Below are positions 1 to 58,719 of a DNA stretch of 64,000 nucleotides, in pieces. The stretch lies in the IMG/VR virus record IMGVR_UViG_3300043786_001086. One strand, 5' to 3'. Below the pieces are notes generated by a model. It made no database searches, was not told the DNA's origin, and was given only the letters and a program-made list of their open reading frames with translations. Source of the stretch: a virus. Taxonomy: Duplodnaviria > Caudoviricetes. The first letter of the stretch is position 1, and every line of letters begins with the position of its first letter. A program made the translations under genes and the position numbers.

Positions 1-321
1 TCCTATTATATTTGCAACTTTAAGTATTAATGTGATTTCAAAATCTTGAAAGTCTGCTCTTTGAAACCATTCTTGATCTGTGTGTATAGAAAGTTTTACA
101 TCATAATGGTCGTGTATTTTTTTTACTTCTAAAACTTTAAGTTTTGTTGTTCCGTTCTTGAACCCTTTACAAAGTGCAAGTTCAAGATTTCTAAATGCAT
201 GTCTTCTAGAACAACCTTCAACATAATCTTCAACCGCCATATCAACAAGATTTTGAACTGAATCAATTTGTTTTGATTCAAGTAATACTTTTTGTTGATC
301 TTCTGAAATGATGATTTTCAT
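1..321 (-). CDS. Hypothetical protein with MKIIISE leader (runs off window)
   Basis: Manual translation MKIIISEDQQKVLLESKQIDSVQNLVD..., open to position 1; paralogous N-terminus to 1207..1593. Confidence 0.8.
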   Translation of the reverse strand, partial: MKIIISEDQQKVLLESKQIDSVQNLVDMAVEDYVEGCSRRHAFRNLELALCKGFKNGTTKLKVLEVKKIHDHYDVKLSIHTDQEWFQRADFQDFEITLILKVANIIG

Positions 322-336
322 ATTAAATAAATAGTT

Positions 337-738
337 CTAAATGTGAGTTACATAACCATGTCTGTCTGTTATAGAAGCATCCCAAACACCAGTTAAGTTA
401 TATTGTGTATTTTTATTAACCTCTGGAAAAAAGTGACCAAAAACATCACCAATTTTATCATAAATTTCATCACCTAATTCTTGACTATAAAATTCATCCT
501 CTGTTAGGGACAAATTTGTTTTTATGTTAAAAAAATAATAAGGTAGTCCTCCCCAATCTCTATCAATACTTACCTGTAATCCATCAAACCAAGAATAATC
601 TTCCAACTCTCTTTGGACATTTTTAGAAACCACTTTTTTTAATTTTATGGCCCTGTCATATAGTTGTTGAAGATCCATATCCACAATGGAATTTTCTTTG
701 AGAAGACTAACTTGTGATTCTGTAATTATTATTTTCAT
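337..738 (-). CDS. Hypothetical protein with MKIIITE leader
   Basis: 133-aa ORF in tightly packed run. Confidence 0.8.
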   Translation of the reverse strand: MKIIITESQVSLLKENSIVDMDLQQLYDRAIKLKKVVSKNVQRELEDYSWFDGLQVSIDRDWGGLPYYFFNIKTNLSLTEDEFYSQELGDEIYDKIGDVFGHFFPEVNKNTQYNLTGVWDASITDRHGYVTHI

Positions 739-749
739 ATTCTATTTTT

Positions 750-839
750 TTAAATTGTAGACACTAGACAACTAACCATGGAGAAGCTTGATAAAACCTT
801 TCGGTTGTGACTCCCCTTAAGTTGTAGACACTAGACAAC
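750..839 (-). CRISPR. CRISPR-like repeat-spacer-partial repeat inside/at end of CDS
   Basis: GTTGTCTAGTGTCTACAACTTAAGGGGAGTCACAAC (804-839, 36 nt), 31-nt spacer (773-803), second copy matching 22 of first 23 nt (750-772). Confidence 0.55.
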
Positions 840-1207
840 CACTCTTTTGTAAGTTCCTTTATGTCAGGATCGAAAAGACCAGTATCAAATAAAGGTTTCC
901 AAATTTCTTCGTAATTAATGAAAACAGTTCTATTTTTTCTATTGTGAACCATCAAATTATGTTTTGGTTTATATCGAAATAAAGTCCAATCAGGGTCCAT
1001 TTCACTTTGAACAACATCCAAGTCATCAAACAAATGTAAAAAATCCATCGGAGAATTTATGTTTAAAATTTCCATTAAATTATCGAAACCATTAACAAGT
1101 TCAGCAGTATCTTTTACTCCAAAATCTTTAATTTCCTGTTTAAGATTTTGTTTCAACTTTGATTCTAAAAGTAAATTATATTGTGATTCTGATATTATTA
1201 TTTTCAT
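764..1207 (-). CDS. Leader-bearing protein, family A (C-terminal CRISPR-like repeat-spacer unit)
   Basis: Clear paralog of 31216..31662 (LFRY..N.M...RKN..V.I.Y..IW..L...WLS..YNLRGVTT). Confidence 0.85.
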   Translation of the reverse strand: MKIIISESQYNLLLESKLKQNLKQEIKDFGVKDTAELVNGFDNLMEILNINSPMDFLHLFDDLDVVQSEMDPDWTLFRYKPKHNLMVHNRKNRTVFINYEEIWKPLFDTGLFDPDIKELTKEWLSSVYNLRGVTTERFYQASPWLVV

Positions 1208-1593
1208 TACCAGTTTAGGTCTTTGTTTGAGTTTATAGTACCTCGGATGGTTATAATAATATTTCTTGATCCGACAATTTCTCTAACTTCCCATTGGATT
1301 TGATAAATAAAATCTTCAAAAGGTGTATATCCTAATGATGAATAATATATGTCAACTTCAATCAACCAAAAATTAGTTTTTTGACCTCTTGTGGTCGCTG
1401 ATCCTTTTTCAGATGCAACAACTTTAATCTCTTCAACGGTTTCCATTTGATCACAAGCATATTGTTCAACCCAATTTTTTTCACAGTTTTCTCTTAATTC
1501 CTCAAATGCCTGATCAATAAGATTTTGTGCCGACTCAAGTTTTTTTGACTCGGTTAATAACTTTTGTTGTCGTTCTGAAATTATTATTTTCAT
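1207..1593 (-). CDS. Hypothetical protein with MKIIISE leader
   Basis: 128-aa ORF, start/stop overlap with neighbours. Confidence 0.8.
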   Translation of the reverse strand: MKIIISERQQKLLTESKKLESAQNLIDQAFEELRENCEKNWVEQYACDQMETVEEIKVVASEKGSATTRGQKTNFWLIEVDIYYSSLGYTPFEDFIYQIQWEVREIVGSRNIIITIRGTINSNKDLNW

Positions 1594-7633: not shown

Positions 7634-7674
7634 AATAAAACAAAAATAACAAATTTAAATACAAATGTCAAACA

Positions 7675-7700
7675 AAAAACCCCACCTTACAGGATGGGGG
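7675..7700 (-). terminator. Intrinsic terminator
   Basis: CCCCACC/GGATGGGG hairpin plus U-tract on minus strand. Confidence 0.65.
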
Positions 7701-7729
7701 AGAAATAATATCCAAATTGATACATATTA

Positions 7730-7906: not shown

Positions 7907-7981
7907 GTTTCGACTTTTATTAAGGGTTTATTTGTTAATAAATTTTAACAAAAATAAATATCATAGTCAATAGGTAAAAAC

Positions 7982-8010
7982 AAAAAACCCCACCTGTTGA
8001 GATGGGGTTT
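7982..8010 (-). terminator. Intrinsic terminator after endolysin
   Basis: ACCCCAC/GATGGGGT hairpin with A/T tracts. Confidence 0.7.
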
Positions 8011-8029
8011 AAATAATATTTTTAATACA

Positions 8030-11540: not shown

Positions 11541-12374
11541 TTAATCTTTGTATTTGTAATTGTCAAATTTTTTATTTTTACTTAAAACCCTCCATCTTAT
11601 CGTTGCCATAGGTAGATTAAGTATTTTGGATGCCTCACCAGCAGAACGGTATTCAACATCATCAATTATTATTGGTATATTCTGTTCTCCATTATAAGTT
11701 CCTTTTCTGATTTCACTTAACTTATTTTTAGTTTCTTCCGAATGTTGTTTACCAAAAAATGGATTATCGTCATTACTTCTTGGTCTACATTTATTACAAT
11801 GAGTGTGACCGTAACCTATTCTTTTACCACATTCACAATAGACATAAGTTAAACCTCCCTTCCAATTAGGATTTTGTTCTTTATCATAACTTCTTCTATT
11901 ATCTAATGATTTTTTTACAATTTCTTTAGGTATTTTCTTACCTTTCCAAAATCCTTCTTTACCATACATTCCATTTTTTTCGCCAGATACACTTTCACTT
12001 CTTTTTTTTCTTTCATCATCACTGATATTGTCCCAATACTTTTTTGTTGAGAGTCTTTGGTTTTCAACCCAATTCTCATCATACTTAATAAATTCAGATA
12101 AATCTCCACCAGTGCCACCTTCAGTTAAATTATAGCCGTTTGCAATTGTTTTGAGTTTATCAATCCAAAAAATTTCTTTTTCATTCAACTCATCTTTATT
12201 AGAACACTCTTCTAAAATAGTTTTAGAGAAATTTTCTAACCCATATTTTTTTATGGCTAACTTAATCAACTTTCCACTCCCAAAATATTTTTCAAATGAT
12301 AATCCACTATATTGTCCGACATAAGATTTACCATTAATGTTGTTTTTTATTTCATAAACTAAAAATTTCTTCAT
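11541..12374 (-). mobile_element. Free-standing GIY-YIG homing endonuclease (NUMOD3/NUMOD1-type tail)
   Basis: LVYEIKN.INGKSYVGQ...YFGSG...E..WI...GYN; PFFGKQHSEETK. Confidence 0.88.
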
Positions 12375-12429: not shown

Positions 12430-13524
12430 TTAGTTAGAAAGTGGCATTTTTATACTTGGGTGTGATTTGTAATTTTTAAGTGTGAAATCGCCAATAGTAT
12501 AAGATTCTATTGATGGTCTTGAACCTTCATAGGTGGGGAACTGATTAAGAGTTGGTAATTCAAATGGTTCTCTTGTTAATTGTTCTTTCACACCATCAAT
12601 TTGATTTAGATATATGTGACAATCTCCCATATTTGAAATCAATTCTTCAGGTACCATATTAACCTCTTTTGCCAATATCATCAAAAGTAACCCATATGAA
12701 GCCAAATTAAATGGAAGCCCGAGCGGAACATCATTGCTTCTCATATTGAACATTAAAGAGATTGCCCTGGTTGGTATACTACAATCATTGAATAAACTAT
12801 TCCATCCATTTTCATCTGTCGGAAAAATATCTTTAACATAAGACGATTTATCATATATGTCTTTTCTTTCCTGTAAACTGAACTCTCTTGTATAAATTTG
12901 AAATCCATAATGACAAGGTGGAAGAGTCATCTGGTCCAATTCCGATGGGTTCCAAGCTGTAACCATCAATCTTCGGCTATCAGGATTTGTTTTAAGGTCG
13001 TGAATAAGATTTTTTATCTGGTCAAGTTTAGGCACTTCAGAAAAATGAGTAACAGCCCCATGATTCCATCCTGAAGGTTTTTTATCAAAGCCACCCCACG
13101 CTCTCCATTGTCTACCATACACAGGACCTAAATCTCCCCACTTCTTAGCAAACTCATCATCTGTTTTGATTTTGTTGATGAACTCTTCTTGTGTACTAGG
13201 CCATCCTATTGCAACTAAATTTTGGTAACCTCCAGAGATAATCTTTTGACCGTAGTTCTTATAAGCATCACCGTCCCAAATATGACAATCATTATCTATA
13301 AGGTATTTAATGTTCGTATCACCACGTAGGAACCAAATCAATTCAGTTACAATTCCTTTCCAAAACATTTTCTTGGTTGTGAGTAAAGGAAATCCTTCAC
13401 TCATGTTGTGTCTGATCTGACGACCAAAAACACTGATGGTTCCTCCATTTCTTGTTTCTTTTTTTACCCCATTATCCAAAATATCTTGAAGTAAATCTTG
13501 GTATTGTTTGTCTAAATTATTCAT
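12430..13524 (-). CDS. thyA: Thymidylate synthase ThyA
   Basis: FPLLTTKK, ELIWFLRG, DLGPVYG.QWR, DSRR, PPCH, LGLPFN, GDCHIY; uninterrupted. Confidence 0.95.
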   Translation of the reverse strand: MNNLDKQYQDLLQDILDNGVKKETRNGGTISVFGRQIRHNMSEGFPLLTTKKMFWKGIVTELIWFLRGDTNIKYLIDNDCHIWDGDAYKNYGQKIISGGYQNLVAIGWPSTQEEFINKIKTDDEFAKKWGDLGPVYGRQWRAWGGFDKKPSGWNHGAVTHFSEVPKLDQIKNLIHDLKTNPDSRRLMVTAWNPSELDQMTLPPCHYGFQIYTREFSLQERKDIYDKSSYVKDIFPTDENGWNSLFNDCSIPTRAISLMFNMRSNDVPLGLPFNLASYGLLLMILAKEVNMVPEELISNMGDCHIYLNQIDGVKEQLTREPFELPTLNQFPTYEGSRPSIESYTIGDFTLKNYKSHPSIKMPLSN

Positions 13525-13529
13525 TTTCG

Positions 13530-14378
13530 TTATTTTTTATATTCCCATTTATAACCACCAGCGGTTTCTTGTTTTCCTTTACATACCGCAGATATATTGA
13601 ATATTTTTAATTGTTTTTCAACTTCTGTTATACTATCCCAAGTATAAAGTAAATTACCATTTAAATCAAATTGTAAAACCTGTAATCTTTTTTTTGATGA
13701 TCCTGTTGACACACCTTTTTTCAATTTTGATAGTTTTTCTGAAAACCCTTTTGGTTTAGGTTTTCTCATTTTATTTTTTGTTTCTTCAGATAGTTTCCTA
13801 CCTTTACCCGCCTTTGATATTTTTTCTTTGGCTTCGTCAGTATGCTTCCACCCATTCTCTAATTTATATTGCTGATGTTGTGATATTTTTAATCTCCATT
13901 CAAAATGTCTTCTATCGGCCTCTTCTTTACCATATTTTTCTAACCATAAACTATAACGACCTTTTTTAGTTAGTTCTGTGCCGTTTTCCTTGTTATGTTT
14001 TATGATTTTTTCAATTTGTTGTTTTTTTCTAATATCAGCTTCTTCCTGACCGTGTTTTTCAACCCAATAATTATAAATTCCGTTTTTAGTAATGTCTTGA
14101 CCTATTTGTCTGTCACCCTCTTTACCACCATTACTTATATTATAACCAATTTTTCTATCTTGACTATTATATTTTAATATCCAGTAAACTTCTCTTTCAT
14201 TCATATGATTTTCATCAACACACTCTTCTAAAATTTCTTTTACAAAATTTTCTTTACCATATTTTTTTATGGCTCTTTGTATTTTTTTACCACTTCCGAA
14301 GTAAGATGGGTTATTATTTCTATCTTGACCGATATAGATTTTATTATTAAGATTGTTAGTTATTTTATAGATAATCAT
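13530..14378 (-). mobile_element. Free-standing GIY-YIG homing endonuclease
   Basis: IIYKITN..N.KIYIGQ..YFGSG; HTDEAKEKIS; QFDLNG..W.S...TAGGYKW. Confidence 0.88.
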
Positions 14379-19795: not shown

Positions 19796-19901
19796 ATTAT
19801 TTATTTTTAAATTTTTCAAATTTATTTTGTCCAACCCACAAAAAAGAAAAGAAAAAGGTTCAGTTCTCCGAATGAGCATTTGTGGTTAATTACCGTACTA
19901 C

Positions 19902-19956
19902 TGCTAACAGCGTGTATAAAACATTAAAACGATTTTATACACGCAAAACGTTAGCG
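19902..19956 (+). other. attC-like site 1 (backbone site, 55 bp)
   Basis: TGCTAAC A GCGTGTATAAAA...TTTTATACACGC AAAAC GTTAGCG. Confidence 0.85.
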
Positions 19957-20593: not shown

Positions 20594-20669
20594 AGTTTTA
20601 ATTTTTTTTTATAATCTATATATTAATAAAAAAAAAACGGTTTTTTGAAATAATTGAAAAAATAACTGA

Positions 20670-20723
20670 ATATAACAAATGATAAACAACATTAAAACGA
20701 TTGTTTATCATCAGACGTTATAG
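20670..20723 (+). other. attC-like site 3 (54 bp)
   Basis: ATATAAC AAATGATAAACAACATTAAAACGATTGTTTATCATCAGAC GTTATAG. Confidence 0.85.
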
Positions 20724-20753
20724 GCAATATTTAAAAGTTTTTTTGCCATTGCA

Positions 20754-21311
20754 CTATTTAGAGTTTTCAAGTTGCTCAAGTTCTTTTTTCATCTTTTCAA
20801 TTCTCCTTTGTTTCGCATCTTCTTTATTAAGTTCGTAGTACTTTTTTAAAAGCAAATCAAACGAGTTAAAAACATCTTTTGCGTTTTCTAATTTCCAATA
20901 TAATCCGAGATTTACTTCGTCTATGTAATCAGGCGTAAATGATTTTAATTCAAGCCAAAACTTTTGAAAGAAATTTACGGCATAATCTTCTCCAAAAATG
21001 TATGCACCAGTTGGAAAGCATATTTGTAATAACATTTCATCTTCGGGCTGTATTCCATCAACGCTCCAAATTATAGTTCTTCTGTGTTTTTCGCCCCACA
21101 TCCCAATCGCCCTATATTCTCCAAACCTAACCCAATCCATATTTTTAATTTGTTTAGAGTCAATATTTAGCCCGTAAACTTCTTTCAGTTCAAGTCCAAA
21201 TAAATGTGTTTTGGCTTTTCTTTCCAATTCACTTACATCAAAAACGCAAATTTCTCTGTGTTTATGTAATGCTTTTAAAATTTCATCGTATGCTTCTTTT
21301 ACTTTTTTCAT
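20754..21311 (-). CDS. Cassette 3: hypothetical protein
   Basis: 185-aa ORF between attC3 and attC4. Confidence 0.8.
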   Translation of the reverse strand: MKKVKEAYDEILKALHKHREICVFDVSELERKAKTHLFGLELKEVYGLNIDSKQIKNMDWVRFGEYRAIGMWGEKHRRTIIWSVDGIQPEDEMLLQICFPTGAYIFGEDYAVNFFQKFWLELKSFTPDYIDEVNLGLYWKLENAKDVFNSFDLLLKKYYELNKEDAKQRRIEKMKKELEQLENSK

Positions 21312-21363
21312 TTTATGTTTATTTTAATTGTTAATTCCTTCGCTAAAAACTTTTAAATACAGC

Positions 21364-21437
21364 CTATAACAGCACATACACGCTATTTCCCTGCCCTCAA
21401 TACAACGCTCACAGCGTGTATGTGCAAAACGTTATAA
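21364..21437 (+). other. attC-like site 4 (74 bp)
   Basis: CTATAAC A GCACATACACGCT...AGCGTGTATGTGC AAAAC GTTATAA. Confidence 0.88.
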
Positions 21438-21444
21438 GTTATTT

Positions 21445-21861
21445 TCATAATATCTCATAATCTTTTAATATTTGAATATGGTGTTCTCTCCATTTATTTT
21501 TTGAAACTCCAATTGAGTTAGATTTTATGAATTTCCACCCATGATAATACGCACCTAATTCTCGTTTTAATACATTTCTACCATATTCGTAAGGACAAAC
21601 ATTATATACATAGATATAATCTCTAAAAGTTAGAAAATGTCCATATTCATGTAGAAGTGTTAGAAACATATTCTCATTAGATTGTTCTGAATTTACATAT
21701 ATTATCTGTTTCAAAAAATTAAATCTCCCACCTATATCCCCAAATTTTGAACTATCTATAATCTCAACTTTTATGTTTTTTTGAACTTCTTCTTTTAAAA
21801 GATTGAATTCATTCATATAAAAGTCATCAATTTCCTTTACTATTAAATCTACCATATTCAA
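21445..21861 (-). CDS. Cassette 4: putative zinc metallopeptidase (ImmA/IrrE-like)
   Basis: TLLHEYGH (HExxH) plus downstream E..A. Confidence 0.65.
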   Translation of the reverse strand: MNMVDLIVKEIDDFYMNEFNLLKEEVQKNIKVEIIDSSKFGDIGGRFNFLKQIIYVNSEQSNENMFLTLLHEYGHFLTFRDYIYVYNVCPYEYGRNVLKRELGAYYHGWKFIKSNSIGVSKNKWREHHIQILKDYEIL

Positions 21862-21878
21862 ATATAATAAAAAACAAC

Positions 21879-21932
21879 TTATAACAAATGATAAACAACA
21901 TTAAAACGATTGTTTATCATCGGACGTTAGCG
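21879..21932 (+). other. attC-like site 5 (54 bp)
   Basis: Interior near-identical to sites 3 and 7. Confidence 0.85.
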
Positions 21933-21939
21933 GCAAGTG

Positions 21940-22221
21940 CTACTCCTCCACCACTCTATCAGTTTTACCGCCATACAAACGAAACCACCCTGAACCTTCT
22001 GCCGAAACCAAAACATGTGTTTTGCTTGGTGAATGACTGCCATCGGAATGGTCAATAGCAGGAGTCGTTTCTGTGCGTACATGCTTTATTTTAAAACGGT
22101 GCATTACGGAATCATCAAGATTTAACATTTCGTAAAACTTTCCGATTAAATCCGCACCAGCCGCTAACAAGCGGTTAGCGTCATTGCCGTTTTCGTGGTT
22201 AATTGAAGTGTTGTTTTCCAT
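21940..22221 (-). CDS. Cassette 5: hypothetical; probable start MENNTS inside attC6
   Basis: ORF track extends to 22314 only by reading through the attC arm. Confidence 0.65.
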   Translation of the reverse strand: MENNTSINHENGNDANRLLAAGADLIGKFYEMLNLDDSVMHRFKIKHVRTETTPAIDHSDGSHSPSKTHVLVSAEGSGWFRLYGGKTDRVVEE

Positions 22222-22295
22222 ATCAAATTTTGTTTTTAAATTAAAGTTTCGTGTTCCAAAGTCGGCAACGAACGCCAACCGCCCAACCGTTATGT
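22162..22295 (+). other. attC-like site 6 (134 bp)
   Basis: CGCTAAC..GCGGTTAGCGTCATTGCCG / CGGCAACGAACGCCAACCGC..GTTATGT. Confidence 0.85.
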
Positions 22296-22317
22296 GTAAT
22301 AATTTTTTACCCACCTA

Positions 22318-22590
22318 CTAATAAATTTTATAAACTTCTAAATTTCTATGACTTTTCTTCAATACTCCTTTTTCTGTTTCTATACTAAACAAAGTGTCTC
22401 CGTTTTGAAGTTCTTCTTTATCTGTTATAACACCGTCCATTAAAGATTTATTAAAGTGAAAAGTTATTTTATCACCTATATTTAGTTGTTTGATTTCCAT
22501 CGGTGAAAATCCTCTTTCACCAGAACCATCTAAATATGATTTTCCTTCTTTTAAGAAGTTTTTAAATCTCTTAATTCTATTCTCTTTCAT
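22318..22590 (-). CDS. Cassette 6: hypothetical (KOW/SH3-like) with MKENRIKRFKNFLKE leader
   Basis: LNIGDKITF...GVI; own TATTTAT motif at 22657-22663. Confidence 0.75.
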   Translation of the reverse strand: MKENRIKRFKNFLKEGKSYLDGSGERGFSPMEIKQLNIGDKITFHFNKSLMDGVITDKEELQNGDTLFSIETEKGVLKKSHRNLEVYKIY

Positions 22591-22699
22591 AGTTCTGTCT
22601 TTTATTTTAAGTTTATATATAAAATCTCAGAACTGAATATATCTGAGATTTTATATATAAATAGTTCAAATTAAGAATTTCCACCCACAAAATTACTAC

Positions 22700-22753
22700 A
22701 CATAACAAATGATAAACAACATTAAAACGATTGTTTATCATCGGACGTTATAC
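22700..22753 (+). other. attC-like site 7 (54 bp)
   Basis: ACATAAC...GTTATAC; interior identical to site 5. Confidence 0.85.
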
Positions 22754-23125
22754 GCAAGCACTACCATTCTGCTCCGTATTGACAATTTCATCTACCGAAA
22801 GTAAATCGGATATATCTGCAAGATGAGTTTCTAAATCCATTCCTACCTGTTCGTAATCACAAAATCTGTGAAAACAATCTCCTTGTTCTCTATCTTGAAC
22901 ACAATCTCTTTCTTCTCCATTTTCCAAGAAAACACCACAACCAGTGCATTTATCACATACACTTTCTTCGGGGTGTTCTCCATCTCTCAAAACCCTACTT
23001 TGCCATCCTTTTGAATAAGCATTGTAGATTTTTTCTAAAACAGATTTTGTTTTTTCAACGAACTCTTTTTGGCTCATCTTGTATGGCTCTTGTGGTTCGA
23101 TTTTAAATAAGTCATCTATATTCAT
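22748..23125 (-). CDS. Cassette 7: Cys-containing hypothetical protein
   Basis: CDKCTGC...C...C; stop codon is the TAA of the GTTA core. Confidence 0.75.
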   Translation of the reverse strand: MNIDDLFKIEPQEPYKMSQKEFVEKTKSVLEKIYNAYSKGWQSRVLRDGEHPEESVCDKCTGCGVFLENGEERDCVQDREQGDCFHRFCDYEQVGMDLETHLADISDLLSVDEIVNTEQNGSACV

Positions 23126-26188: not shown

Positions 26189-27379
26189 TTAAATTTTAGT
26201 TTTTAACATTTCTTTATAAGCATTACCTGTATCAAATTGTTGTTCAAATGTTGGATTTGGATAATGTTCGTTTTTAATCCAATTATCGTGATGTTCAAAT
26301 GTTCTCCATTCATTATCACGTAATTCTTTTACCATATTCATCAATCCAGTTCCAACTTTCATATCAGAAGGAATTTCAACTCCACCATCTGGTGTAACTT
26401 TTTCAATTGTTTCTTCAATAAACATTTGGTTCAAGAATGTTACCTCTCTAGTTTCTTTAACACCATTTTCAATGGCATCATCAATACTTGATCCAAATGT
26501 GAATGGTCTATCAGATACGTCTTTAATACCACTTTGAATGGTGTCTTCAATACCGACTAATCTATCCGTTTTTGCTAACACAGTGTCCTTTACTCCATTT
26601 TGAATGGCGTCCTTAACCCCACTCCTTATCCTCATCCCATCTACTTCGGTGTGTCTTACCCCATTTTGAATGGTGTCTTCAACCTCATTATTTTGTTTTG
26701 GAGATTCAATTTGATGAACTATTTTCCCTTTCATCTCCATTGAACCCAAATAACCACTAGGTGTTGTTTCTTTCACCCCATTTTGAATGGTGTCTTCAAT
26801 GTATTTAATTGGTGGTGAATTGAATGTTCGTGTTTCTTTTACACCATTTTGAATTGCGATTTCAATACCACCTTTTCGGTAACCAATTTTGTAATTGGTT
26901 TCTTTCACCCCCTCTTGAATGGTATCTTCAACTAAGGTATTATTAGTATATTCAAAATAATCGGTGTGTCTTACCCCATTTTGAATGGTGTCTTTAACTG
27001 CAGAAATTTCATCCGCATTTAAATCCCAAGTGTGTTTCACCCCATTTTGAATGGTATCTTTAACCTTCAATGGTTTTCCAGCAGTGCTTAAACTTTCCTC
27101 AACCACATCAATACCCAAAAATCTTGATTCAAACCAGTTCTTGATCAAATCTCTTTCTTGAGTGCAGTCCTTACTGACTAGATCTAACTCATTTTGAAAT
27201 AGGTTATAGTTGAACCACAAAGTTTTATCTTTTGTGAATTCAACCACCCATCTTTTGTCTTCGGTAAAGATCAACCAAGTTGAACCTTGTTCTGTAATAT
27301 ACTTGTCTGCACCTTCAATCATTTGGTCAAACAACCCAAAGACAAGTTTCTCTAATTTTTTTCCTGATGGATTATTCAT
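26189..27379 (-). CDS. Family B protein (NPSGKKL domain plus 9 DTIQNGVK repeats)
   Basis: Probable start MNNPSG by homology with 27501..28070 and 38555..39106. Confidence 0.85.
   Translation of the reverse strand: MNNPSGKKLEKLVFGLFDQMIEGADKYITEQGSTWLIFTEDKRWVVEFTKDKTLWFNYNLFQNELDLVSKDCTQERDLIKNWFESRFLGIDVVEESLSTAGKPLKVKDTIQNGVKHTWDLNADEISAVKDTIQNGVRHTDYFEYTNNTLVEDTIQEGVKETNYKIGYRKGGIEIAIQNGVKETRTFNSPPIKYIEDTIQNGVKETTPSGYLGSMEMKGKIVHQIESPKQNNEVEDTIQNGVRHTEVDGMRIRSGVKDAIQNGVKDTVLAKTDRLVGIEDTIQSGIKDVSDRPFTFGSSIDDAIENGVKETREVTFLNQMFIEETIEKVTPDGGVEIPSDMKVGTGLMNMVKELRDNEWRTFEHHDNWIKNEHYPNPTFEQQFDTGNAYKEMLKTKI
26450..27064. CRISPR. In-frame CRISPR-like array 1: nine 36-nt repeats, 30-nt unique spacers (one 81 nt)
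   Basis: Consensus GGTGTKTCTTACCCCATTTTGAATGGTGTCTTYAAC, 66-nt period counted by hand; third-codon-position variation also present. Confidence 0.55.
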
Positions 27380-27500
27380 TTTATTTAATTTTTTCTCCGT
27401 TTTGAATGGTATATTCAACCCTTTTATATCGTAAGTCAGTTGATGTTCCTGTAGTGTGTTTCACCCCATTTTCAACGACATATTTCGTTCTCTGTTTTCT

Positions 27501-28070
27501 TTAACCATCATAACTTCGTTTTGTTTGTTTCACTCCATTTTCAATTGTGTCTATAATATAATGAGTCGCATCCAAACGCCACTCTTGGGTCTCCTTTACC
27601 CCGTTTTGAATGGTGTCTTCAACCAGGTCGGCCAGCGAAGCCAATTTTCCGCCGGTGTGTTTCACCCCATTTTGAATGGTATCTTCAACTGATATCCTGC
27701 GCAATGCGGACCTAACCTTGGTGTTCTTCACCCCATTTTGAATGGTGTCTTCAATTTGATACCACACATCTACCGGATTGTCCCAAGTTTTATCAACCTT
27801 TGGTTTATTCAAAAATCTATATTCAAACCATCTGGTTATGTATTCTTTATTTTCAACGCAATCCATACCAACCAATTCCATTTCATTTTTGAATAGTTTG
27901 TAGTTATACCATAGAGTTCCTCCTTCGGTATATTCAACAACCCATTGTCGTTCATTGGTAAAGATGATCCATAAACTACCACTATGATTGTATTGGTCAA
28001 CACCTTCAATCATTTGGTCAAATAGTTTGAACAAAATCTTATCTAATTTTTTTCCTGATGGATTTTTCAT
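27501..28070 (-). CDS. Family B protein (4 repeats; premature TAA in a spacer)
   Basis: Paralog; two further degenerate repeats continue in frame to ~27381. Confidence 0.85.
   Translation of the reverse strand: MKNPSGKKLDKILFKLFDQMIEGVDQYNHSGSLWIIFTNERQWVVEYTEGGTLWYNYKLFKNEMELVGMDCVENKEYITRWFEYRFLNKPKVDKTWDNPVDVWYQIEDTIQNGVKNTKVRSALRRISVEDTIQNGVKHTGGKLASLADLVEDTIQNGVKETQEWRLDATHYIIDTIENGVKQTKRSYDG
27522..27755. CRISPR. In-frame CRISPR-like array 2: four 36-nt repeats, 30-nt spacers
   Basis: Repeats at 27522, 27588, 27654, 27720. Confidence 0.55.
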
Positions 28071-31076: not shown

Positions 31077-31205
31077 TTTAAAAATTTTCTGTGTTTTCCT
31101 AAAACACCAATTACTAATACTGCAAATGTAAATAAAATACCAACCATAATCAAATTATAGTGGTTTATATAAAATAGAAAAGAAAGTATAACTATTTCAT
31201 TATAG

Positions 31206-31291
31206 ATTGTAAGCCTCAGACAACTAATGAGTGCCGACCCATTATAGATGGATAAGTTGTTACTCCCCTCAAATTGTAAGCCTCAGACAAC
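31206..31291 (-). CRISPR. CRISPR-like repeat-spacer-partial repeat inside/at end of CDS
   Basis: GTTGTCTGAGGCTTACAATTTGAGGGGAGTAACAAC (31256-31291), 31-nt spacer, 19-nt second copy. Confidence 0.55.
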
Positions 31292-31662
31292 CACTCTTCT
31301 GTAAGTTGTTGTATTTCAGAGTTTTTAAGATCAAAACCTTCTTCTAAAAATGGCCAAATAACATCATAATATATATAAACATTGTTATTTTTTCTATCGT
31401 AAATCATTACATTATTTTTTTTTTCATACCTAAATAAAGTCCAATTAGGTTCTTCTTCACTCTGAACAACATCCAAATCAGTAAAAATATTTAAAAAATC
31501 TATAGGAGTTTCAATTCCTGTCAATTTTTTAAGATTCTCAATACCTCCAACTAATTCAGCGGCAGATTCCCAACCTTCTTCTTTAATAATATCAATTAAA
31601 GATTGATTTTTTTTATTTTCAAATAAAAGATTATACTGACTTTCTGTTATTATTATTTTCAT
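31216..31662 (-). CDS. Leader-bearing protein, family A
   Basis: Paralog of 764..1207. Confidence 0.85.
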   Translation of the reverse strand: MKIIITESQYNLLFENKKNQSLIDIIKEEGWESAAELVGGIENLKKLTGIETPIDFLNIFTDLDVVQSEEEPNWTLFRYEKKNNVMIYDRKNNNVYIYYDVIWPFLEEGFDLKNSEIQQLTEEWLSEAYNLRGVTTYPSIMGRHSLVV

Positions 31663-31685
31663 ATAAGATAAATACTTTGTTAAAT

Positions 31686-38554: not shown

Positions 38555-39106
38555 CTATTTTTCTTTCACCCCATTTTGAATGGTGTCTTTAACTAACTCA
38601 TATAACGAATGGTAAGGGGCTTGGGTGTTTTTTACCCCATTTTGAATGGTGTCTTTAACCAACGAATCAATCTGTTTTACATATCCACGGGTGTTTTTTA
38701 CCCCATTTTGAATGGTGTCTTTAACTCGGGTGTTTTTGCTTCCACGATTCCAGCAGGTGTTTTTTACACCATTTTGAATGGTGTCTTTAACACACAAACG
38801 ATAATTGGAATTAGATTTGTCAGTTTCTTTAACCTCATTCTTATTCAAAAATCTTGACTCAAACCATTTTTGAATAAGGTCTTTATTATCAACACAATCC
38901 AAGTTTATCATTTCCATTTCGTTTTTGAAGAAATAGTAATTATACCATAGTGTTTGTTCTTTAGTGTATTCCACAACCCATTTCATTTCATCAGTAAAGA
39001 TCAACCACATACTACCATTATGGTTATATGTATCAACACCTTGTATGGCGTCGTCAAACATTCCAAATAAAAGTTTCTCTAATTTTTTTCCTGTTGGGTT
39101 AATCAT
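38555..39106 (-). CDS. Family B protein (4 DTIQNGVK repeats)
   Basis: Paralog of 26189 and 27501 genes. Confidence 0.85.
   Translation of the reverse strand: MINPTGKKLEKLLFGMFDDAIQGVDTYNHNGSMWLIFTDEMKWVVEYTKEQTLWYNYYFFKNEMEMINLDCVDNKDLIQKWFESRFLNKNEVKETDKSNSNYRLCVKDTIQNGVKNTCWNRGSKNTRVKDTIQNGVKNTRGYVKQIDSLVKDTIQNGVKNTQAPYHSLYELVKDTIQNGVKEK
38558..38791. CRISPR. In-frame CRISPR-like array 3: four near-identical 36-nt repeats, 30-nt spacers
   Basis: GGTGTTTTTTACCCCATTTTGAATGGTGTCTTTAAC at 38624 and 38690 identical, 38756 one mismatch, 38558 5'-divergent. Confidence 0.65.
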
Positions 39107-42861: not shown

Positions 42862-43065
42862 TTACCCCGGAAAGTATGTTGAAATAAAATTCTTGATTTG
42901 TATAATGTGATCAAACAAAAAACAAGTTAGAAGAAATAAAATAAACCAAATAATTGCGGTCGATGTTAAAGGAAAATTTTTTATAGAATATTTTACAAAA
43001 TCTATAATGTCTGATATCATAAATAATAAAATTATGATTGTTAAAAAAATAAAAGTTAAAATCAT
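42862..43065 (-). CDS. Small membrane protein
   Basis: Two hydrophobic segments. Confidence 0.6.
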   Translation of the reverse strand: MILTFIFLTIIILLFMISDIIDFVKYSIKNFPLTSTAIIWFILFLLTCFLFDHIIQIKNFISTYFPG

Positions 43066-46000
43066 TTTATTATTTGTTTTATAGTTTCAGAAGTTATTCC
43101 ATTAGAAGTTATGCTAACATAATAAACCCCCGGACTTAAATTTAAACCAGAAATATTATACAAATTTATTCCGGTTGAAACTTTTATGTCTTGGTTATAA
43201 ACTTCAGACCCTTTAGTATCCTTAACTATAAATAGTCCTTCACCAATCATTTTTTTATTATTTAATATAACTTGAAAATCTCCTGAACTTGGATTTGGAA
43301 ATATTGAAAAATATCCTTTTGTGTTTCCATTACAAATCACATTGATTGGTCCATATTCTTTGAATTGTCCGTCAATATCATATTGAATTAATTTGTAATA
43401 ATTGTTTCCGTCGATTGCATTTTCATCTTTTGTGGTATATGACAATTCTTGAGTTGAGTTACCGGCAGATCCCAAAGTTGTTAGTGAAGACCAATTTTCA
43501 CCATCCCTTGATTTTTGTATTTCGAAATAATGTGAATTATGTTCAGTTGCTGTTTTCCAGTCCAATGTGATGACATTATCATTACAAGATCCATCAAATG
43601 ATAATAACTCAACAGGAAGAATTTGTGAATTAGACGACCCAATATTAAACCAACTAAACCCTTGTGTATTATTGCTTGTAATTAAAAATGCCATTGGATT
43701 AGCATTTGCAGGTATTGCAACATGACTTCCGCATGGTTGCCAACTTGTATGAACTGAACCAGGAGATTTAATAATTCTGCATATTTGTGGAGTTGTCATT
43801 CCGTTAAGGTTATTTGCAAATAAAGTTAGATTATACGGTGTTTGACAAATTGAAGACGAATAGTTATTTGATGTCGGTATAACTTCCCAATATCCGTCAA
43901 TTGAATAATTTTGAATAAGTGCGTTTGAGGCCATAAATGGAAGTCCATTATATAAAGGTGTGCCATTAACAATTGGAGCTCCATTCTTATATTGAACAGT
44001 TAAAGACTGATTCACCCCAGGAGAAGTTGTGAACTGAAAACTTGCATATCTGTTGTAGTTTGAAGTTCCAACGGGAAATAGTCCCTCGTTACCGTTTGTT
44101 GATAAATTATTAAAAAATCTTTTGAACGGTCCAACGATTGTTCCTGTATTATATGTTAATGAACCTATATTTGAACTACTTGAACCTAGTGTTAATAAGG
44201 AGTTGTTTGAGGTAAAAATATTTCCTTGAATCATATTTAAGTTACCAGTAACATTCACATGGTTACCAAGTGTTAGTGTTGCCCCTTGTGATTTATTAAC
44301 TTTCATGTTAAATAATTGTGATGTTCCGTTTCCATTGAAAGATGAGTTTTGATTTCCAACAAAATTTATAGTTCCAGTATTTGCGATCAATGTCCCATTA
44401 TTTACGATATCATGTGATATTTTCAAACTGTCGTTTGTTAAATTAAGAGTAATTCCTGAATTTATAAAAACGTCATAAGCATCTCCATTCACACTTAAAG
44501 TTGGTGTTGTGTTTCCAATACAAATTCCGCCATTTACTTGGTCCAAAGTAAAAACCTGACTTGCTATTGTTGGAAGTGAAACTCCTGACATTCTAATGAA
44601 ATGTCCTGCAGCTTGTTTTTGATACCAGTTTGTTGAAGTTGACCAATCAACAGAAGTGAGCCCTCCCCATAAAAAGTCGTTTGTTCCAATTGCACCTCCT
44701 AAAGACGAAGCATTTGGTTGATTGAATGTAACTAACATATTATTGGGTGTAGAACAATTTCCGTTTGAGACAGTCCATTGAAGAGTATATGTTGAGCCAT
44801 AGTTTCCAATAAACGTAGATGTGGGTGAATTTATATTTGAAAAACTTCCTCCAACACCACTTACAACTGACCATGTTCCTGTTTCACCCGCTTGTGGTGT
44901 GTTAGCCCCCAAAGTTACTTGATTTATACCACAAGTTGATGTTCCATTATTAGACCCTCCTGCGCTTGCCAAAGGATTGGATAGAACAGTGACGGTAGTG
45001 CTTGAGGTATTAGAACATCCATTTGCGTTTGTGCCTGTAACCGTATAAGTTTGCGTTGATGTTGGTGTAAAAGCCACTCCATTAGTCACACTGTTATTCC
45101 AAGAGTATGTTGATGCTCCAGAACCATTAAGTGTTACTTGAGTTCCTGAACAAACAGTTTGATTAGACCCTGCACTTACATTCGGTAATGGATTTACGGT
45201 TATTGTTCTACTTGAAGTTCCACTACAACCATTAGAAGTTGCAGTAACAGTATAGGTTGTTGTAGTTGATGGGTTTGCTATCGGATTTTGTATATTTGGG
45301 TTTGACAACCCTGTTGATGGTGACCAAATATAATTTACAACCGGAGCTGTTGTGCAACTTGATACCCAATAGTTATTTTGTGAACCCCCTCCAATTGAGC
45401 CTGAAAGTATTGTAGACCCATTACAAGTTATAGTAAAGGTTGGGACATTATCATTCCAGCTTCCCATAGTTTCAATATAAAAAACATAAGGACCATTAGC
45501 AGAAGAAGCAATATTTGTGACGTTAGGTGATGTGAAATAAGGACCTCCTGAACCAATTATAACTCCAAGATTATTTGTTAGAGTCCAACTTGTTTCATCT
45601 AATAATCCCCCTGTTATTGTAACTGCAAGAGAACCTGGAGATGACACTCCCGTAACAGATGAATTTAGTTGTGTTGATGAACCCTGACAAATTGTGCTTA
45701 AACTTGCAGAAGTTGATACGACCGGATTGTTATTTACCGTTACTGTTGTAGACACACAATTGTTACTAAACTGAACTCCATTGTAGTTTCTTGCGTAATA
45801 TGTTGTGGTTGTCGATGGGGTTACACTTATTGAGTTCCCTGTTGCAATCTGACCTACACCACATCCTCCTGTAAACCAATATACAGTTCCACTTGCCCCG
45901 TTTGCCGTTAATGTAGTTGATTGACCAACACATATTGTATTTGAAGTTGCTGTAATTGAGGTTGGGTTTGGTGGTGGTGGAGTTGAACATGTTAATCCTA

Positions 46001-57973: not shown

Positions 57974-58669
57974 ATGAGAAAATTAGAAAAAAACACAAGA
58001 CGGTATTTTGTAAATCTATTTGCCGACTACATCCTATCTAAATTCGACAAATCAGAAAACACAATTATTCAAGTAACAGACTTTGAGAACTTTGTTGTTG
58101 TAAATGGTCAAACAACAAGTTCAAATGTTTTAGAAATGCTTAAACTAAAATCTGAGTTTATTGAGTCGAATAAAGAGTTATTTAACTCTTTGGATAAAGA
58201 GGATCTGAATGTAATTGATATTATCAAATACAATCAAGAAATAACAGATCTAAAACGAGGATGGATCAACGTGAACAAATCTTTATATGTTGATCAATAC
58301 GATCCAATTTCAGAGATAAACATTTCATCAGAATTTCCATATGGACATAGTTTAGGGTGTGGTAGAGGAATGTTCTACTACTCACACTATATCTTTAACC
58401 ACATGTATTCTTTATTGGGTGTAGACAAGTTATATTTTCGTTATTCAAGTGATCTTGATGAGAATGAAGACTACAAAATTAAAATAGTGTCTGATTCAAG
58501 ATATTCAAAAGATCAGATTACTAATCTTGTATTGGATGTGTTTGATATGGATTTAACCGAATTTAACCAAAAGTTATCAAACCACAATTTTACAGAAGAC
58601 ATTACAAATCAGTCCTTAGACAAACCATATTTGGTTCAAGATAGATTAAAAGATGTAATATTGGTATAA
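57974..58669 (+). CDS. Hypothetical protein, weak MetK (SAM synthetase)-like N-terminus
   Basis: NLFADYIL...VVVNGQTT resembles D.ISDAIL...V.V.GEIT; catalytic motifs absent. Confidence 0.4.
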   Translation: MRKLEKNTRRYFVNLFADYILSKFDKSENTIIQVTDFENFVVVNGQTTSSNVLEMLKLKSEFIESNKELFNSLDKEDLNVIDIIKYNQEITDLKRGWINVNKSLYVDQYDPISEINISSEFPYGHSLGCGRGMFYYSHYIFNHMYSLLGVDKLYFRYSSDLDENEDYKIKIVSDSRYSKDQITNLVLDVFDMDLTEFNQKLSNHNFTEDITNQSLDKPYLVQDRLKDVILV

Positions 58670-58719
58670 AAAAGAAACCCCACTTTAAAGGTGGGGGTAG
58701 TTTTAAATAATTTATTTTC

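What the first reader, a model, noticed from the sequence alone, without database searches (positions are those of the whole stretch)
750..839. A type VI-B-like CRISPR repeat-spacer unit forms the 3' end of a phage gene (family A, copy 1)
Seen: a 36-nt GTTG...CACAAC repeat encodes LSSVYNLRGVTT, followed by a 31-nt spacer and a second copy whose shifted frame supplies the stop codon. Known: Bacteroidota type VI-B (Cas13b) and many II-C repeats are 36 nt, VI-B repeats have GTTG/CAAC ends, and spacers are about 30 nt. Inference: either a host Cas1-Cas2 integration site inside a gene, or a repeat decoy carried on the mRNA (RNA anti-CRISPR-like).
Basis: partly seen in the sequence, partly recalled or inferred. 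Interest (0 to 1): 0.78.

Follow-up and report, generated by a model that had tools for sequence, protein, structure and literature searches.

The report
Phage gene ending in CRISPR mini-array
The last twelve codons of a small gene of a giant lake phage are also the first repeat of a CRISPR-type mini-array without cas genes, and this array has taken up about 30-base pieces of foreign DNA (here a piece of a bacterial recA gene), so a bacterial spacer-inserting enzyme seems to write into phage genes.

Summary
On the minus strand, window 839-804 is a 36-nt GTTG...CAAC unit that encodes LSSVYNLRGVTT. Window 803-773 is a 31-nt insert. Window 772-750 repeats the first 23 nt (22/23) and supplies the stop codon.

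It is a CRISPR-type array, not a chance duplication. Among 123 distinct relatives of this gene end, 73 carry 1-5 unique inserts of mostly 29-31 nt between 36-nt repeats, and the last repeat is usually degenerate.

A metagenome contig whose gene is 366/366 nt identical to the window's gene carries the window's array plus one further exact repeat and a new 29-nt spacer on the gene side. That is the signature of polarised CRISPR adaptation. Another allele has no spacer.

The window's spacer matches a bacterial recA start region. None of 116 spacers matches 910 kb of related phage genomes.

No cas gene was found in the window, and none in the checks made on a complete 296-kb relative. The repeat resembles Cas13b (VI-B) repeats only moderately (19-27 of 36), in one half and without their stem.

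Best reading: the gene end acts as leader plus first repeat for a host Cas1-Cas2. Why the phage keeps it is inferred only.

The scan earlier noted in-frame "family B" arrays in this and other phages. Family A is not kept in frame.

The parts
764..1207 (-). Gene for a 147-aa protein of unknown function (family A, copy 1). It starts with the MKIIISESQ..LLE leader shared by neighbouring genes. Its last 24 codons run through repeat 1, the spacer and the start of the terminal repeat.
   Evidence: ORF list. No Pfam, PHROG or isolate-phage match. 535 metagenomic relatives. AlphaFold2 model with mean pLDDT 86.3. No solved fold matches, and in the viral library only uncharacterised phage proteins match.
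840..854 (-). Last five codons before the repeat (CTT ACA AAA GAG TGG in the window). This is a candidate leader-repeat junction.
   Evidence: In 72 array-bearing relatives these codons mostly use rare synonymous codons: AAG in 84% against 15% genome-wide, and GAG in 86% against 22%. That it acts as a leader is inferred.
804..839 (-). Repeat 1, 36 nt, complete (GTTG...CACAAC). It encodes L124-T135.
   Evidence: It is duplicated exactly in L187. W123, L124, Y128 and N129 are invariant in alignment A1. Rare codons are held here.
773..803 (-). Spacer, 31 nt. The + strand reads as recA sense codons (L)TMEKLDKTF, so the gene-sense strand is antisense to recA.
   Evidence: It is replaced by unrelated sequence in relatives. 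A lake-metagenome contig matches 769-801 with 3 mismatches, and its flanks complete a RecA start region.
737..772 (-). Terminal, degenerate repeat. The first 23 nt (772..750) are 22/23 identical to repeat 1. The rest is the A-rich stretch before the next gene and the first two bases of its start codon. It holds the stop codon TAG at 766..764.
   Evidence: Across 73 arrays the terminal repeat keeps on average 21.4 of 23 leading bases of its own first repeat but only 4.5 of the last 13.
337..738 (-). Next gene (133 aa, MKIIITESQ... leader). Its start codon overlaps the terminal repeat by 2 nt.
31216..31662 (-). Paralogous gene (148 aa), family A copy 2.
   Evidence: (family D11).
31189..31291 (-). 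Copy 2 array. Repeat 31291..31256 is GTTGTCTGAGGCTTACAATTTGAGGGGAGTAACAAC. The spacer is 31255..31225. The terminal half-repeat starts at 31224.
   Evidence: The same repeat heads arrays of 5 and 3 spacers in relative L014.

Best explanation
This is a genuine CRISPR-type mini-array without cas genes. Its leader and first repeat are the 3' end of a phage protein gene.

Shown: new units, each an exact copy of the locus's own 36-nt repeat plus about 30 nt of foreign DNA, are added at the gene-proximal end. Units are also lost, which leaves a hybrid terminal repeat. The window's spacer is homologous to the start of a bacterial recA gene.

Inferred: the insertions are made by a Cas1-Cas2 integrase of the Bacteroidota host, of the kind that fills type VI-B arrays in trans in Flavobacterium. 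It would act on replicating phage DNA and use fragments of host DNA. The variable 10-17-residue protein tail is a by-product, because no reading frame is kept.

Inferred with less certainty (about one in three): the phage keeps about ten such gene ends per genome as decoy integration sites that draw the host's adaptation machinery away from the host array.
For: 1. Array geometry. Of 123 distinct gene ends, 50, 45, 18, 8 and 2 carry 1, 2, 3, 4 and 6 repeats. The 109 unique spacers are 29 nt (16), 30 nt (40), 31 nt (40) or 32 nt (6) long. New VI-B and II-C spacers in F. columnare are 28-32 bp, mostly 30.

2. Repeat copying. 33 of 42 internal repeats match their array's first repeat at 35 or more of 36 positions, although there are 57 different first repeats. 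So new repeats are copied in place and not imported.

3. Polarity. L187 has a gene 366/366 nt identical to the window's gene. It carries repeat, a new 29-nt spacer, repeat, the window's spacer, then the terminal repeat. L084 equals L078 plus one spacer on the gene side. L188 is the allele with no spacer.

4. Spacer source. A 243-nt lake contig matches window 769-801 with 3 mismatches. Together with its flanks it reads KALQLTMEKLDKTFGKGAVMKLGD. This is RecA Pfam positions 1-24 (E 2.4e-4) and is 19/24 identical to Flavobacterium RecA. In 4 of 5 recA loci the spacer's best DNA match falls at the homologous site.

5. Not phage-derived. None of 116 spacers matches 910 kb of related jumbo-phage genomes outside the arrays. 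Spacer GC is 36.9% against 31.1% for phage 30-mers (p 7e-12).

6. No phage integrase seen. No cas gene appeared among the window ORFs scanned. Five relatives, including a complete 296-kb genome, have no Cas1 match, and that genome's large ORFs have no cas match.

7. Constraint on the bases. In the repeat, Arg is AGG in 59 of 62 genes (7% genome-wide), Leu is TTG in 64 of 65 (19%) and Thr is ACA in 67 of 67 (48%). Synonymous differences among diverged pairs are 0.21 in the repeat against 0.34 upstream.

8. Precedent. F. columnare VI-B arrays gain spacers through II-C Cas1-Cas2, about half of them from the host's own genome, and are transcribed from leader into array.
Against: The integrase and the host are not identified.

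No bacterial array with this repeat turned up in one exact-pattern scan of 185,579 species genomes. The only real hit was a phage fragment binned with a Flavobacterium genome.

Likeness to true VI-B repeats is moderate (19-27 of 36). It lies in the gene-distal half only, its orientation is ambiguous, and there is no internal stem.

Polarity rests on two nested pairs.

Only one spacer is traced, and only to a relative of its source (30 of 33 bases). The spacer's first two bases do not fit recA.

No match with 3 or fewer mismatches was found in 401 sampled genomes of the phylum.

The conserved synonymous sites were measured on genes chosen because they carry arrays, so part of that signal is ascertainment. 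It could also reflect homogenisation among the roughly ten paralogues in each genome.

The decoy benefit is pure inference.
Confidence: 0.7

Rival explanations
1. RNA anti-CRISPR (Racr-like) decoy. The repeats carried on about ten abundant phage mRNAs bind and tie up the host's Cas13b, and spacer uptake is an unavoidable side effect of mimicking the host repeat. This could hold alongside the best explanation.
For: Repeat mimicry by phages is an established anti-CRISPR strategy. The repeat is 36 nt with GUUG/CAAC ends, and the gene-sense strand carries UUUAAGGGG..CACAAC, like the 3' half of VI-B repeats (13-14 of 18). Leader-to-array transcription has the same direction as in F. columnare VI-B. 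Specific repeat bases are conserved at synonymous sites.
Against: The repeat lacks the C-rich arm that pairs with GGGG in true VI-B repeats. It folds no better than shuffles (z 0.68 and 0.34), so binding by Cas13b is doubtful. The reverse strand is on average more like VI-B repeats (23.5 against 21.1 of 36). If that is the true sense, the mRNA carries the wrong strand. Known Racrs are small non-coding RNAs with their own promoter. No Rfam family matches.
Confidence: 0.2
2. Guide hijacking. The phage array supplies crRNAs that steer a host effector (Cas13b or another) against host transcripts such as recA, or against rival phages.
For: The window's spacer, read on the transcribed gene-sense strand, is antisense to recA mRNA. 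Huge phages with cas-less arrays and host-like repeats have been proposed to use host Cas proteins, and some of their spacers target host genes. Virus-borne mini-arrays target rival viruses.
Against: In VI-B crRNAs the spacer lies 5' of its repeat. In one-spacer arrays, the commonest state, that repeat is the degenerate one, which lacks its 3' half. One antisense orientation is a coin toss. No spacer hit related jumbo phages, isolate phages or IMG/VR. Activated Cas13b degrades RNA indiscriminately, which would also hurt the phage (established knowledge of type VI systems).
Confidence: 0.12
3. Protein diversification. The array exists to give the protein a variable C-terminal tail, as earlier notes of this scan propose for the in-frame family B arrays.
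For: The tails after RGVT differ among otherwise near-identical proteins. The repeat-encoded segment is a confident part of the fold (pLDDT 94 for residues 121-130). Family B arrays in the same window keep a strict 66-nt period.
Against: The periods give remainders of 1, 0 and 2 on division by 3 in 46, 41 and 22 cases, so the frame is not kept. In two of three frames translation stops inside the next repeat, so only the first spacer is ever read. The model's tail is of low confidence (pLDDT 50 for 141-147). The zero-spacer allele is viable in nature.
Confidence: 0.07
4. Not CRISPR adaptation at all. The units arise by replication slippage, by recombination among the paralogous gene ends or with host arrays, or through another mobile element.
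For: T4-like phages recombine readily (established knowledge), and each genome has about ten paralogous loci. Some arrays look recombinant, for example L002 and L092. Phage mini-arrays without leaders have been suggested to gain spacers by recombination with host arrays.
Against: Slippage or paralogue exchange cannot create 106 unrelated inserts of a fixed 29-31 nt length. New repeats carry the locus-specific 5' half, so they were not imported from a host array. One spacer comes from a bacterial housekeeping gene. No bacterial array with this repeat was found.
Confidence: 0.07

Closest known systems
Virus-borne mini-CRISPR arrays of Sulfolobales viruses SPV1/SPV2 (Medvedeva et al. 2019, PMC6858448) and phage mini-arrays (Faure et al. 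2019)
   Same: They have 1-2 spacers and no cas genes. Spacers turn over between close relatives. A leader precedes the array, and insertion by the host's adaptation module is proposed.
   Different: Here the leader and first repeat are protein-coding sequence. There are about ten loci per genome. The host is bacterial. The one traced spacer comes from a bacterial gene, not from a rival virus. An actual gain event is seen in an otherwise identical gene.
Type VI-B (Cas13b) arrays of Flavobacteriia, filled in trans by type II-C Cas1-Cas2 (Smargon et al., bioRxiv 10.1101/092577; Hoikkala et al. 2021, PMC8092290)
   Same: The repeat is 36 nt with GTTG/CAAC ends and the spacers are about 30 nt. The ACAAC end is distal to the leader. 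Transcription runs from leader to array. Many spacers derive from the host's own genome.
   Different: There is no cas13b or csx27/28 nearby. Identity to true repeats is only 19-27 of 36, against 27-31 among them. There is no internal stem. The array lies in a phage gene.
RNA anti-CRISPRs / solitary repeat units (Camara-Wilpert et al. 2023, PMC10651486)
   Same: A phage carries a mimic of a CRISPR repeat without cas genes.
   Different: Racrs are non-coding, have their own promoter and mostly lack spacers. That survey found none for type VI, and it masked ORFs before searching, so it could not have seen this one.
Compact cas-less arrays of huge phages (Al-Shayeb et al. 2020, PMC7162821)
   Same: The phage is huge, the arrays are short, acquisition genes are lacking, and some spacers match host genes.
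   Different: Those arrays are intergenic. Nothing there describes a gene end serving as leader and repeat, or many scattered one-spacer arrays.
Non-canonical or ectopic spacer integration outside CRISPR arrays (Nivala et al. 2018, from my own knowledge; related papers listed)
   Same: Cas1-Cas2 integrates at repeat-like sites and thereby duplicates them.
   Different: Those events are rare laboratory events in the host chromosome. Here the site is conserved across hundreds of phage genes.
'Family B' translated arrays of the same phage
   Same: The geometry is the same and the repeat is also Cas13b-like (22-23 of 36). They occur in the same genomes.
   Different: Family B keeps a strict 66-nt period and is read in frame through many units, and its VI-B-like strand is antisense to the gene. 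Family A has periods of 65-68 nt, and only its first unit is coding.

Membership tests
Type VI-B (Cas13b) CRISPR array | Direct repeat of 36 nt with complementary 5'-GUUG and CAAC-3' ends (Smargon) | tested here: met
   Both window copies are 36 nt with GTTG...CAAC ends. Many relatives end in CACC instead.
Type VI-B (Cas13b) CRISPR array | Conserved repeat sequence and hairpin: poly-U loop flanked by pairing C-rich and G-rich arms | tested here: not met
   Identity to three true repeats is 19-27 of 36, against 27-31 among those repeats, and it lies in one half only. It exceeds end-fixed shuffles (96 of 200,000 for copy 1). No C-rich arm is present, and the fold is no better than shuffles.
Type VI-B (Cas13b) CRISPR array | Spacers of about 30 nt | tested here: met
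   96 of 109 unique spacers are 29-31 nt. One true array in a Flavobacteriaceae genome (G034) has a strict 66-nt period.
Type VI-B (Cas13b) CRISPR array | cas13b (with csx27 or csx28) next to the array | tested here: not met
   The scanned window ORFs of 200 aa or more show no cas or HEPN effector family. The large ORFs of the complete relative G402 have no cas match in Pfam or PADLOC.
Type VI-B (Cas13b) CRISPR array | Pre-crRNA processed into 66-nt crRNAs (5' spacer, 3' repeat) | not testable with these tools
   Only assembled contigs of RNA runs were available, and these cannot show RNA ends.
CRISPR array in the generic sense (a product of Cas1-Cas2 adaptation) | Polarised gain of a spacer with exact duplication of the leader-proximal repeat | tested here: met
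   L187 compared with the window (366/366 identical gene). L084 compared with L078.
CRISPR array in the generic sense (a product of Cas1-Cas2 adaptation) | Unique spacers of foreign origin and a degenerate trailer-end repeat | tested here: met
   There are 106 spacer types, of which 8 are shared between arrays. None matches the phage genomes. One is homologous to recA. The terminal repeat keeps only 4.5 of its last 13 bases.
CRISPR array in the generic sense (a product of Cas1-Cas2 adaptation) | A cognate Cas1-Cas2 is present in the same cell | not testable with these tools
   The host is unknown. No Cas1 was found in five related phage records.
Racr / solitary repeat unit | [quoted passage not shown] | tested here: not met
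   The unit lies inside an ORF. The closest repeat found is 27 of 36. No bacterial array with this repeat was found.
Virus-borne mini-CRISPR array | One to a few spacers, no cas genes, a leader-like sequence upstream, and spacer turnover between close relatives | tested here: met
   The 'leader' is coding sequence, and its function as a leader is inferred.
Virus-borne mini-CRISPR array | Spacers target related viruses | tested here: not met
   There were no matches in 910 kb of relatives, in 50,697 isolate-phage records (two arrays tested) or in IMG/VR (three spacers tested).

The most novel reading that the evidence does not exclude
Phages counter CRISPR at the adaptation stage. The conserved ends of about ten genes per genome mimic a leader-repeat junction, and they are present in many copies on replicating DNA. 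They would act as decoy integration sites that soak up the host's Cas1-Cas2 and its prespacers. The host-derived spacers seen in the phage would then be the fossil record of integrations that were diverted.
Probability: 0.3. Interest if true: 0.9.

Novelty: new variant of a known kind. Interest (0 to 1): 0.8.

Why it matters
Three points matter if this reading holds.

1. It would show that CRISPR adaptation machinery writes heritably into the genome of a lytic phage, with a coding sequence acting as leader and first repeat. I found no description of this in five full-text searches. The main survey of viral repeat mimics masked ORFs and reported none for type VI.

2. Spacers copied from host genes give a new way to assign hosts to uncultured jumbo phages.

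3. It opens a testable question: can mimicry of a leader-repeat junction work as a counter-defence against adaptation? The locus is short and sits in a phage that recurs in lake metagenomes from 2016 to 2024, so amplicon time series could catch acquisition as it happens.

Tried and rejected
- Folding. RNA folding of the repeats and of whole units gave no structure beyond shuffles.
- Rfam. No family matched three arrays, even at E 1.
- The protein. Pfam, PHROGs and tblastn against isolate phages found nothing. Foldseek against PDB found nothing at E 0.001 or below, and the viral library gave only uncharacterised proteins.
- Spacer targets. There was no hit in the window or locus flanks, in isolate phages for two arrays, in IMG/VR for three spacers or in 910 kb of related phage genomes.
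- L014's eight spacers against 301 Flavobacterium genomes gave only weak, AT-rich noise.
- The window's spacer was not found with 3 or fewer mismatches in 401 sampled genomes of the phylum.
- The recA-like flank and a degenerate TMEKLDKTFGKG pattern were absent from IMG/VR.
- One search used a pattern one base too long. This was my slip and the result is void. The corrected pattern found one true array (G034) among 401 Flavobacteriaceae genomes, and none was close to family A.
- Five Flavobacterium genomes had no such array.
- Read laying. DNA contigs from three runs carry the window allele unchanged. RNA-run contigs cannot show RNA ends. One 179-nt contig of a metatranscriptome spans 654-833, which is at most a weak hint of read-through. 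The joint 740>932 has only 21 nt on one side, so I disregard it.
- Translational bypass, target-site duplication by a tiny transposon, and a diversity-generating retroelement were considered early. I dropped them once multi-unit arrays with unique inserts of about 30 nt appeared in relatives.
- The spacer ends showed no clear motif. The F. columnare acquisition motif is not seen beside the recA-like match, by my own reading.

Full report
WHAT IS THERE

The genes at the start of the window lie on the minus strand. Gene 764..1207 encodes a 147-aa protein. It ends ...KEW-LSSVYNLRGVTT-ERFYQASPWLVV*.

On that strand, 839..804 is a 36-nt unit with GTTG and CAAC ends. 803..773 is a unique 31-nt stretch. 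From 772 the first 23 nt of the unit recur (22/23). After that the sequence runs into the A-rich stretch before the next gene's start codon (ATG at 738).

The spacing is 67 nt, so the second copy is read as GTT GTC TAG and supplies the stop. The 18-mer core occurs twice in 64 kb, where 0.05 matches are expected.

A paralogue at 31216..31662 has the same layout and the same 67-nt spacing. Its repeat differs from copy 1 at five positions in the 5' half, yet it is matched by its own downstream half-copy. That within-locus match was the first sign of a copying process rather than chance.

CONTEXT

The protein has no Pfam, PHROG or isolate-phage match. Its AlphaFold2 model is confident (mean pLDDT 86.3). 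In the model the repeat-encoded residues 124-135 form the end of the last helix, a turn and the start of a strand. No solved fold matches it.

The window is from a huge AT-rich phage (30-35% GC). It encodes a thymidylate-synthase-family enzyme, an RNA ligase, GIY-YIG endonucleases, a DNA methylase and a 1346-aa protein with a type IX secretion sorting domain. That domain points to a Bacteroidota host.

A complete 296-kb relative (G402) has a T4-type portal and sheath. No whole genome is held for the window.

RELATIVES SHOW AN ARRAY

The protein has 535 relatives in metagenomes. Homology stops at RGVT. The tails beyond it are unrelated, even between proteins that are 90-100% identical.

I collected about 120 loci and chained the repeats downstream of each gene:
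- Of 123 distinct gene ends, 50 have one repeat, 45 have two, 18 have three, 8 have four and 2 have six.
- Of 42 internal repeats, 33 match their array's first repeat at 35 or more of 36 positions, although there are 57 different first repeats.
- Spacers are 29-31 nt in 96 of 109 cases. This is like the 28-32 bp, mostly 30, of new VI-B and II-C spacers in F. columnare.
- The last repeat keeps 21.4 of its first 23 bases but only 4.5 of its last 13.
- The periods give remainders of 1, 0 and 2 on division by 3 in 46, 41 and 22 cases, so no reading frame is kept.
- G402 alone has about ten such genes, each with 1-2 spacers.

A GAIN CAUGHT IN AN IDENTICAL GENE

Contig L187 carries a gene that is 366/366 nt identical to the window's gene. 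After the gene come the full repeat, a new 29-nt spacer, a second exact full repeat, the window's own 31-nt spacer, and the terminal half-repeat.

This is the window's array plus one unit added at the gene side, with exact duplication of the locus-specific repeat. That is what Cas1-Cas2 integration at a leader-repeat junction produces.

L084 relates to L078 in the same way. L188 (346/366 identical) has no spacer. There the gene ends ...YNLKK* in the hybrid repeat, as expected from a deletion between the first and last repeats. Five further alleles of the same locus carry other spacers.

Because the new repeat carries the locus-specific 5' half, import from a host array is unlikely.

WHERE THE SPACER CAME FROM

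I laid four public runs on window 400-1300. A 243-nt lake-metagenome contig matched 769-801 with 3 mismatches. That stretch is nearly the whole spacer, and the contig's flanks are unlike the phage.

Read on the + strand, the contig encodes KALQLTMEKLDKTFGKGAVMKLGD:
- This aligns to positions 1-24 of the RecA Pfam model (E 2.4e-4, the only hit).
- It is 19/24 identical to RecA of five Flavobacterium genomes.
- In four of those five recA loci, the spacer's best DNA match falls exactly on the homologous codons.

By my rough estimate, a 33-mer with 3 or fewer mismatches anywhere in the 901-nt stretch is expected about 0.01-0.02 times in the data laid. It fell on the 31-nt spacer.

The spacer is therefore homologous to a bacterial recA start region. 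Its exact source species was not found. Neither the flank nor the peptide pattern occurs in IMG/VR.

On the gene-sense strand the spacer is antisense to recA. One case cannot show a strand bias.

None of 116 spacers matches 910 kb of related phage genomes outside the arrays. The spacers are richer in GC than phage DNA (36.9% against 31.1%, p 7e-12).

IS IT TYPE VI-B?

By Smargon's definition the length, the ends and the spacer size fit. Against the F. columnare and F. branchiophilum repeats and a Bergeyella-type repeat found in genome G034, family A repeats share 19-24 of 36 bases in the gene sense and up to 27 in reverse. The true repeats share 27-31 with each other.

With the ends held fixed, only 96 of 200,000 shuffles reach copy 1's 25/36. 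The likeness lies in the gene-distal half (TTTAAGGGGAGTCACAAC). True repeats are quasi-palindromic (20-22 of 36 to their own reverse complement), so the orientation cannot be settled. The C-rich arm of the VI-B hairpin is missing, and the RNA folds no better than shuffles.

Hoikkala et al. found that the leader-distal end is the part shared by VI-B and II-C repeats that use one integrase. The same end is the conserved part here. This fits a DNA-level role (an integration site) better than an RNA-level role (a Cas13b handle).

No bacterial array with this repeat was found.

NO INTEGRASE IN THE PHAGE

None of the window ORFs scanned is a cas gene. Five related records, one of them complete, have no Cas1 match. 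G402's large ORFs have no cas match. The integrase is therefore most likely the host's. This is an inference.

IS THE REPEAT KEPT BY SELECTION?

In 72 array-bearing genes the repeat uses codons that are rare in this genome:
- AGG in 59 of 62 Arg codons (7% genome-wide);
- TTG in 64 of 65 Leu codons (19%);
- GTC in 75% and 63% of the Val codons at two positions (7%);
- TAC in 92% of Tyr codons (27%);
- ACA in 67 of 67 Thr codons (48%).

Among diverged pairs, synonymous differences are 0.21 in the repeat against 0.34 upstream. They are near zero at the codons that hold GTTG, AATTTAAGG and ACA.

Two caveats apply. The genes were chosen because they carry arrays, and paralogues may homogenise each other.

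MECHANISM AND RIVALS

Best-supported steps:
1. The gene end is a leader-repeat junction (shown by the gain events).
2. A Cas1-Cas2 with a 36-bp ruler inserts prespacers of about 30 nt (inferred from geometry and precedent).
3. The prespacers include host DNA (shown for one spacer). This is plausible because T4-like phages degrade host DNA (established knowledge).
4. Recombination between repeats removes units (shown by the zero-spacer allele).
5. The altered protein tail is incidental (no frame is kept).

Why the phage keeps such sites is open. I favour a decoy for adaptation (about 0.3). A Racr-like RNA decoy (0.2), guide hijacking (0.12), tail diversification (0.07) and a non-CRISPR origin (0.07) are discussed under rivals.

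RELATION TO EARLIER NOTES OF THIS SCAN

Earlier notes describe in-frame 'family B' arrays in this window and in at least ten other genomes, and claim that their spacers are host-derived. I did not test family B beyond its period and its likeness to true repeats. For family A I reached a host-gene origin independently, for the one spacer of this finding.

Noticed in passing
window 26453-27757 and 38561-38793: 'Family B' repeats: 17 copies of a unit of about 36 nt with a strict 66-nt period, inside minus-strand ORFs. The + strand consensus is 22-23 of 36 identical to Flavobacterium VI-B repeats, so the VI-B-like strand is antisense to the genes. Unlike family A, the reading frame is kept.
   Followed up: partly
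window 272-322, 689-739, 1158-1208, 1544-1594, 2101-2151, 31613-31663: A conserved 51-nt gene start encodes MKIII(S/T)E.Q..LL.E on otherwise unrelated small proteins. If so, family A proteins would be packaged and injected.
   Followed up: no
window 20652-22757 (also 19896-19939): Three to four copies of a 76-nt intergenic repeat hold a perfect hairpin (ATGATAAACAAC ... GTTGTTTATCAT) between small genes. Earlier notes call this an integron-like cassette array.
   Followed up: no
window 11541-12374, 12430-13524, 13530-14378: Two GIY-YIG/NUMOD3 homing-endonuclease genes flank a thymidylate-synthase-family gene. This family also includes the deoxynucleotide hydroxymethylases of T4-like phages, so the phage DNA may be modified.
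   Followed up: no
window 43062-47102: A 1346-aa protein has an Ig-like CHU_C-associated domain and a type IX secretion C-terminal sorting domain. This points to a Bacteroidota host.
   Followed up: no
L128 (= G001 contig C129, 1825 nt): A fragment of a related phage (tail-gene end, family A gene, two-spacer array) is binned in an uncultured Flavobacterium genome assembly. This may be contamination, or it may be a weak host hint.
   Followed up: partly
L140:2873-5968 (G402, 162873-165968): The T4-type portal gene of the complete 296-kb relative carries an intein.
   Followed up: no
window 769-772 and 802-803: The recA-like contig also matches the four bases GTTG that begin the terminal repeat, but it does not match the first two bases (CG) of the spacer. 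The true spacer borders, or a junction microhomology, remain unexplained.
   Followed up: no
window 7670-7711, 7978-8019, 58668-58709: A repeated G+C-rich hairpin (CCCCACC...GGTGGGG) in an A-rich setting looks like a shared intrinsic terminator.
   Followed up: no
L201 (G034:C1:114346 onward): A bacterial array of 32 copies of GTTGGAACTGCTCTCATTTTGGAGGGTAATCACAAC with a strict 66-nt period. It was the only multi-copy VI-B-type array among 401 sampled Flavobacteriaceae genomes. I did not check its cas genes.
   Followed up: partly
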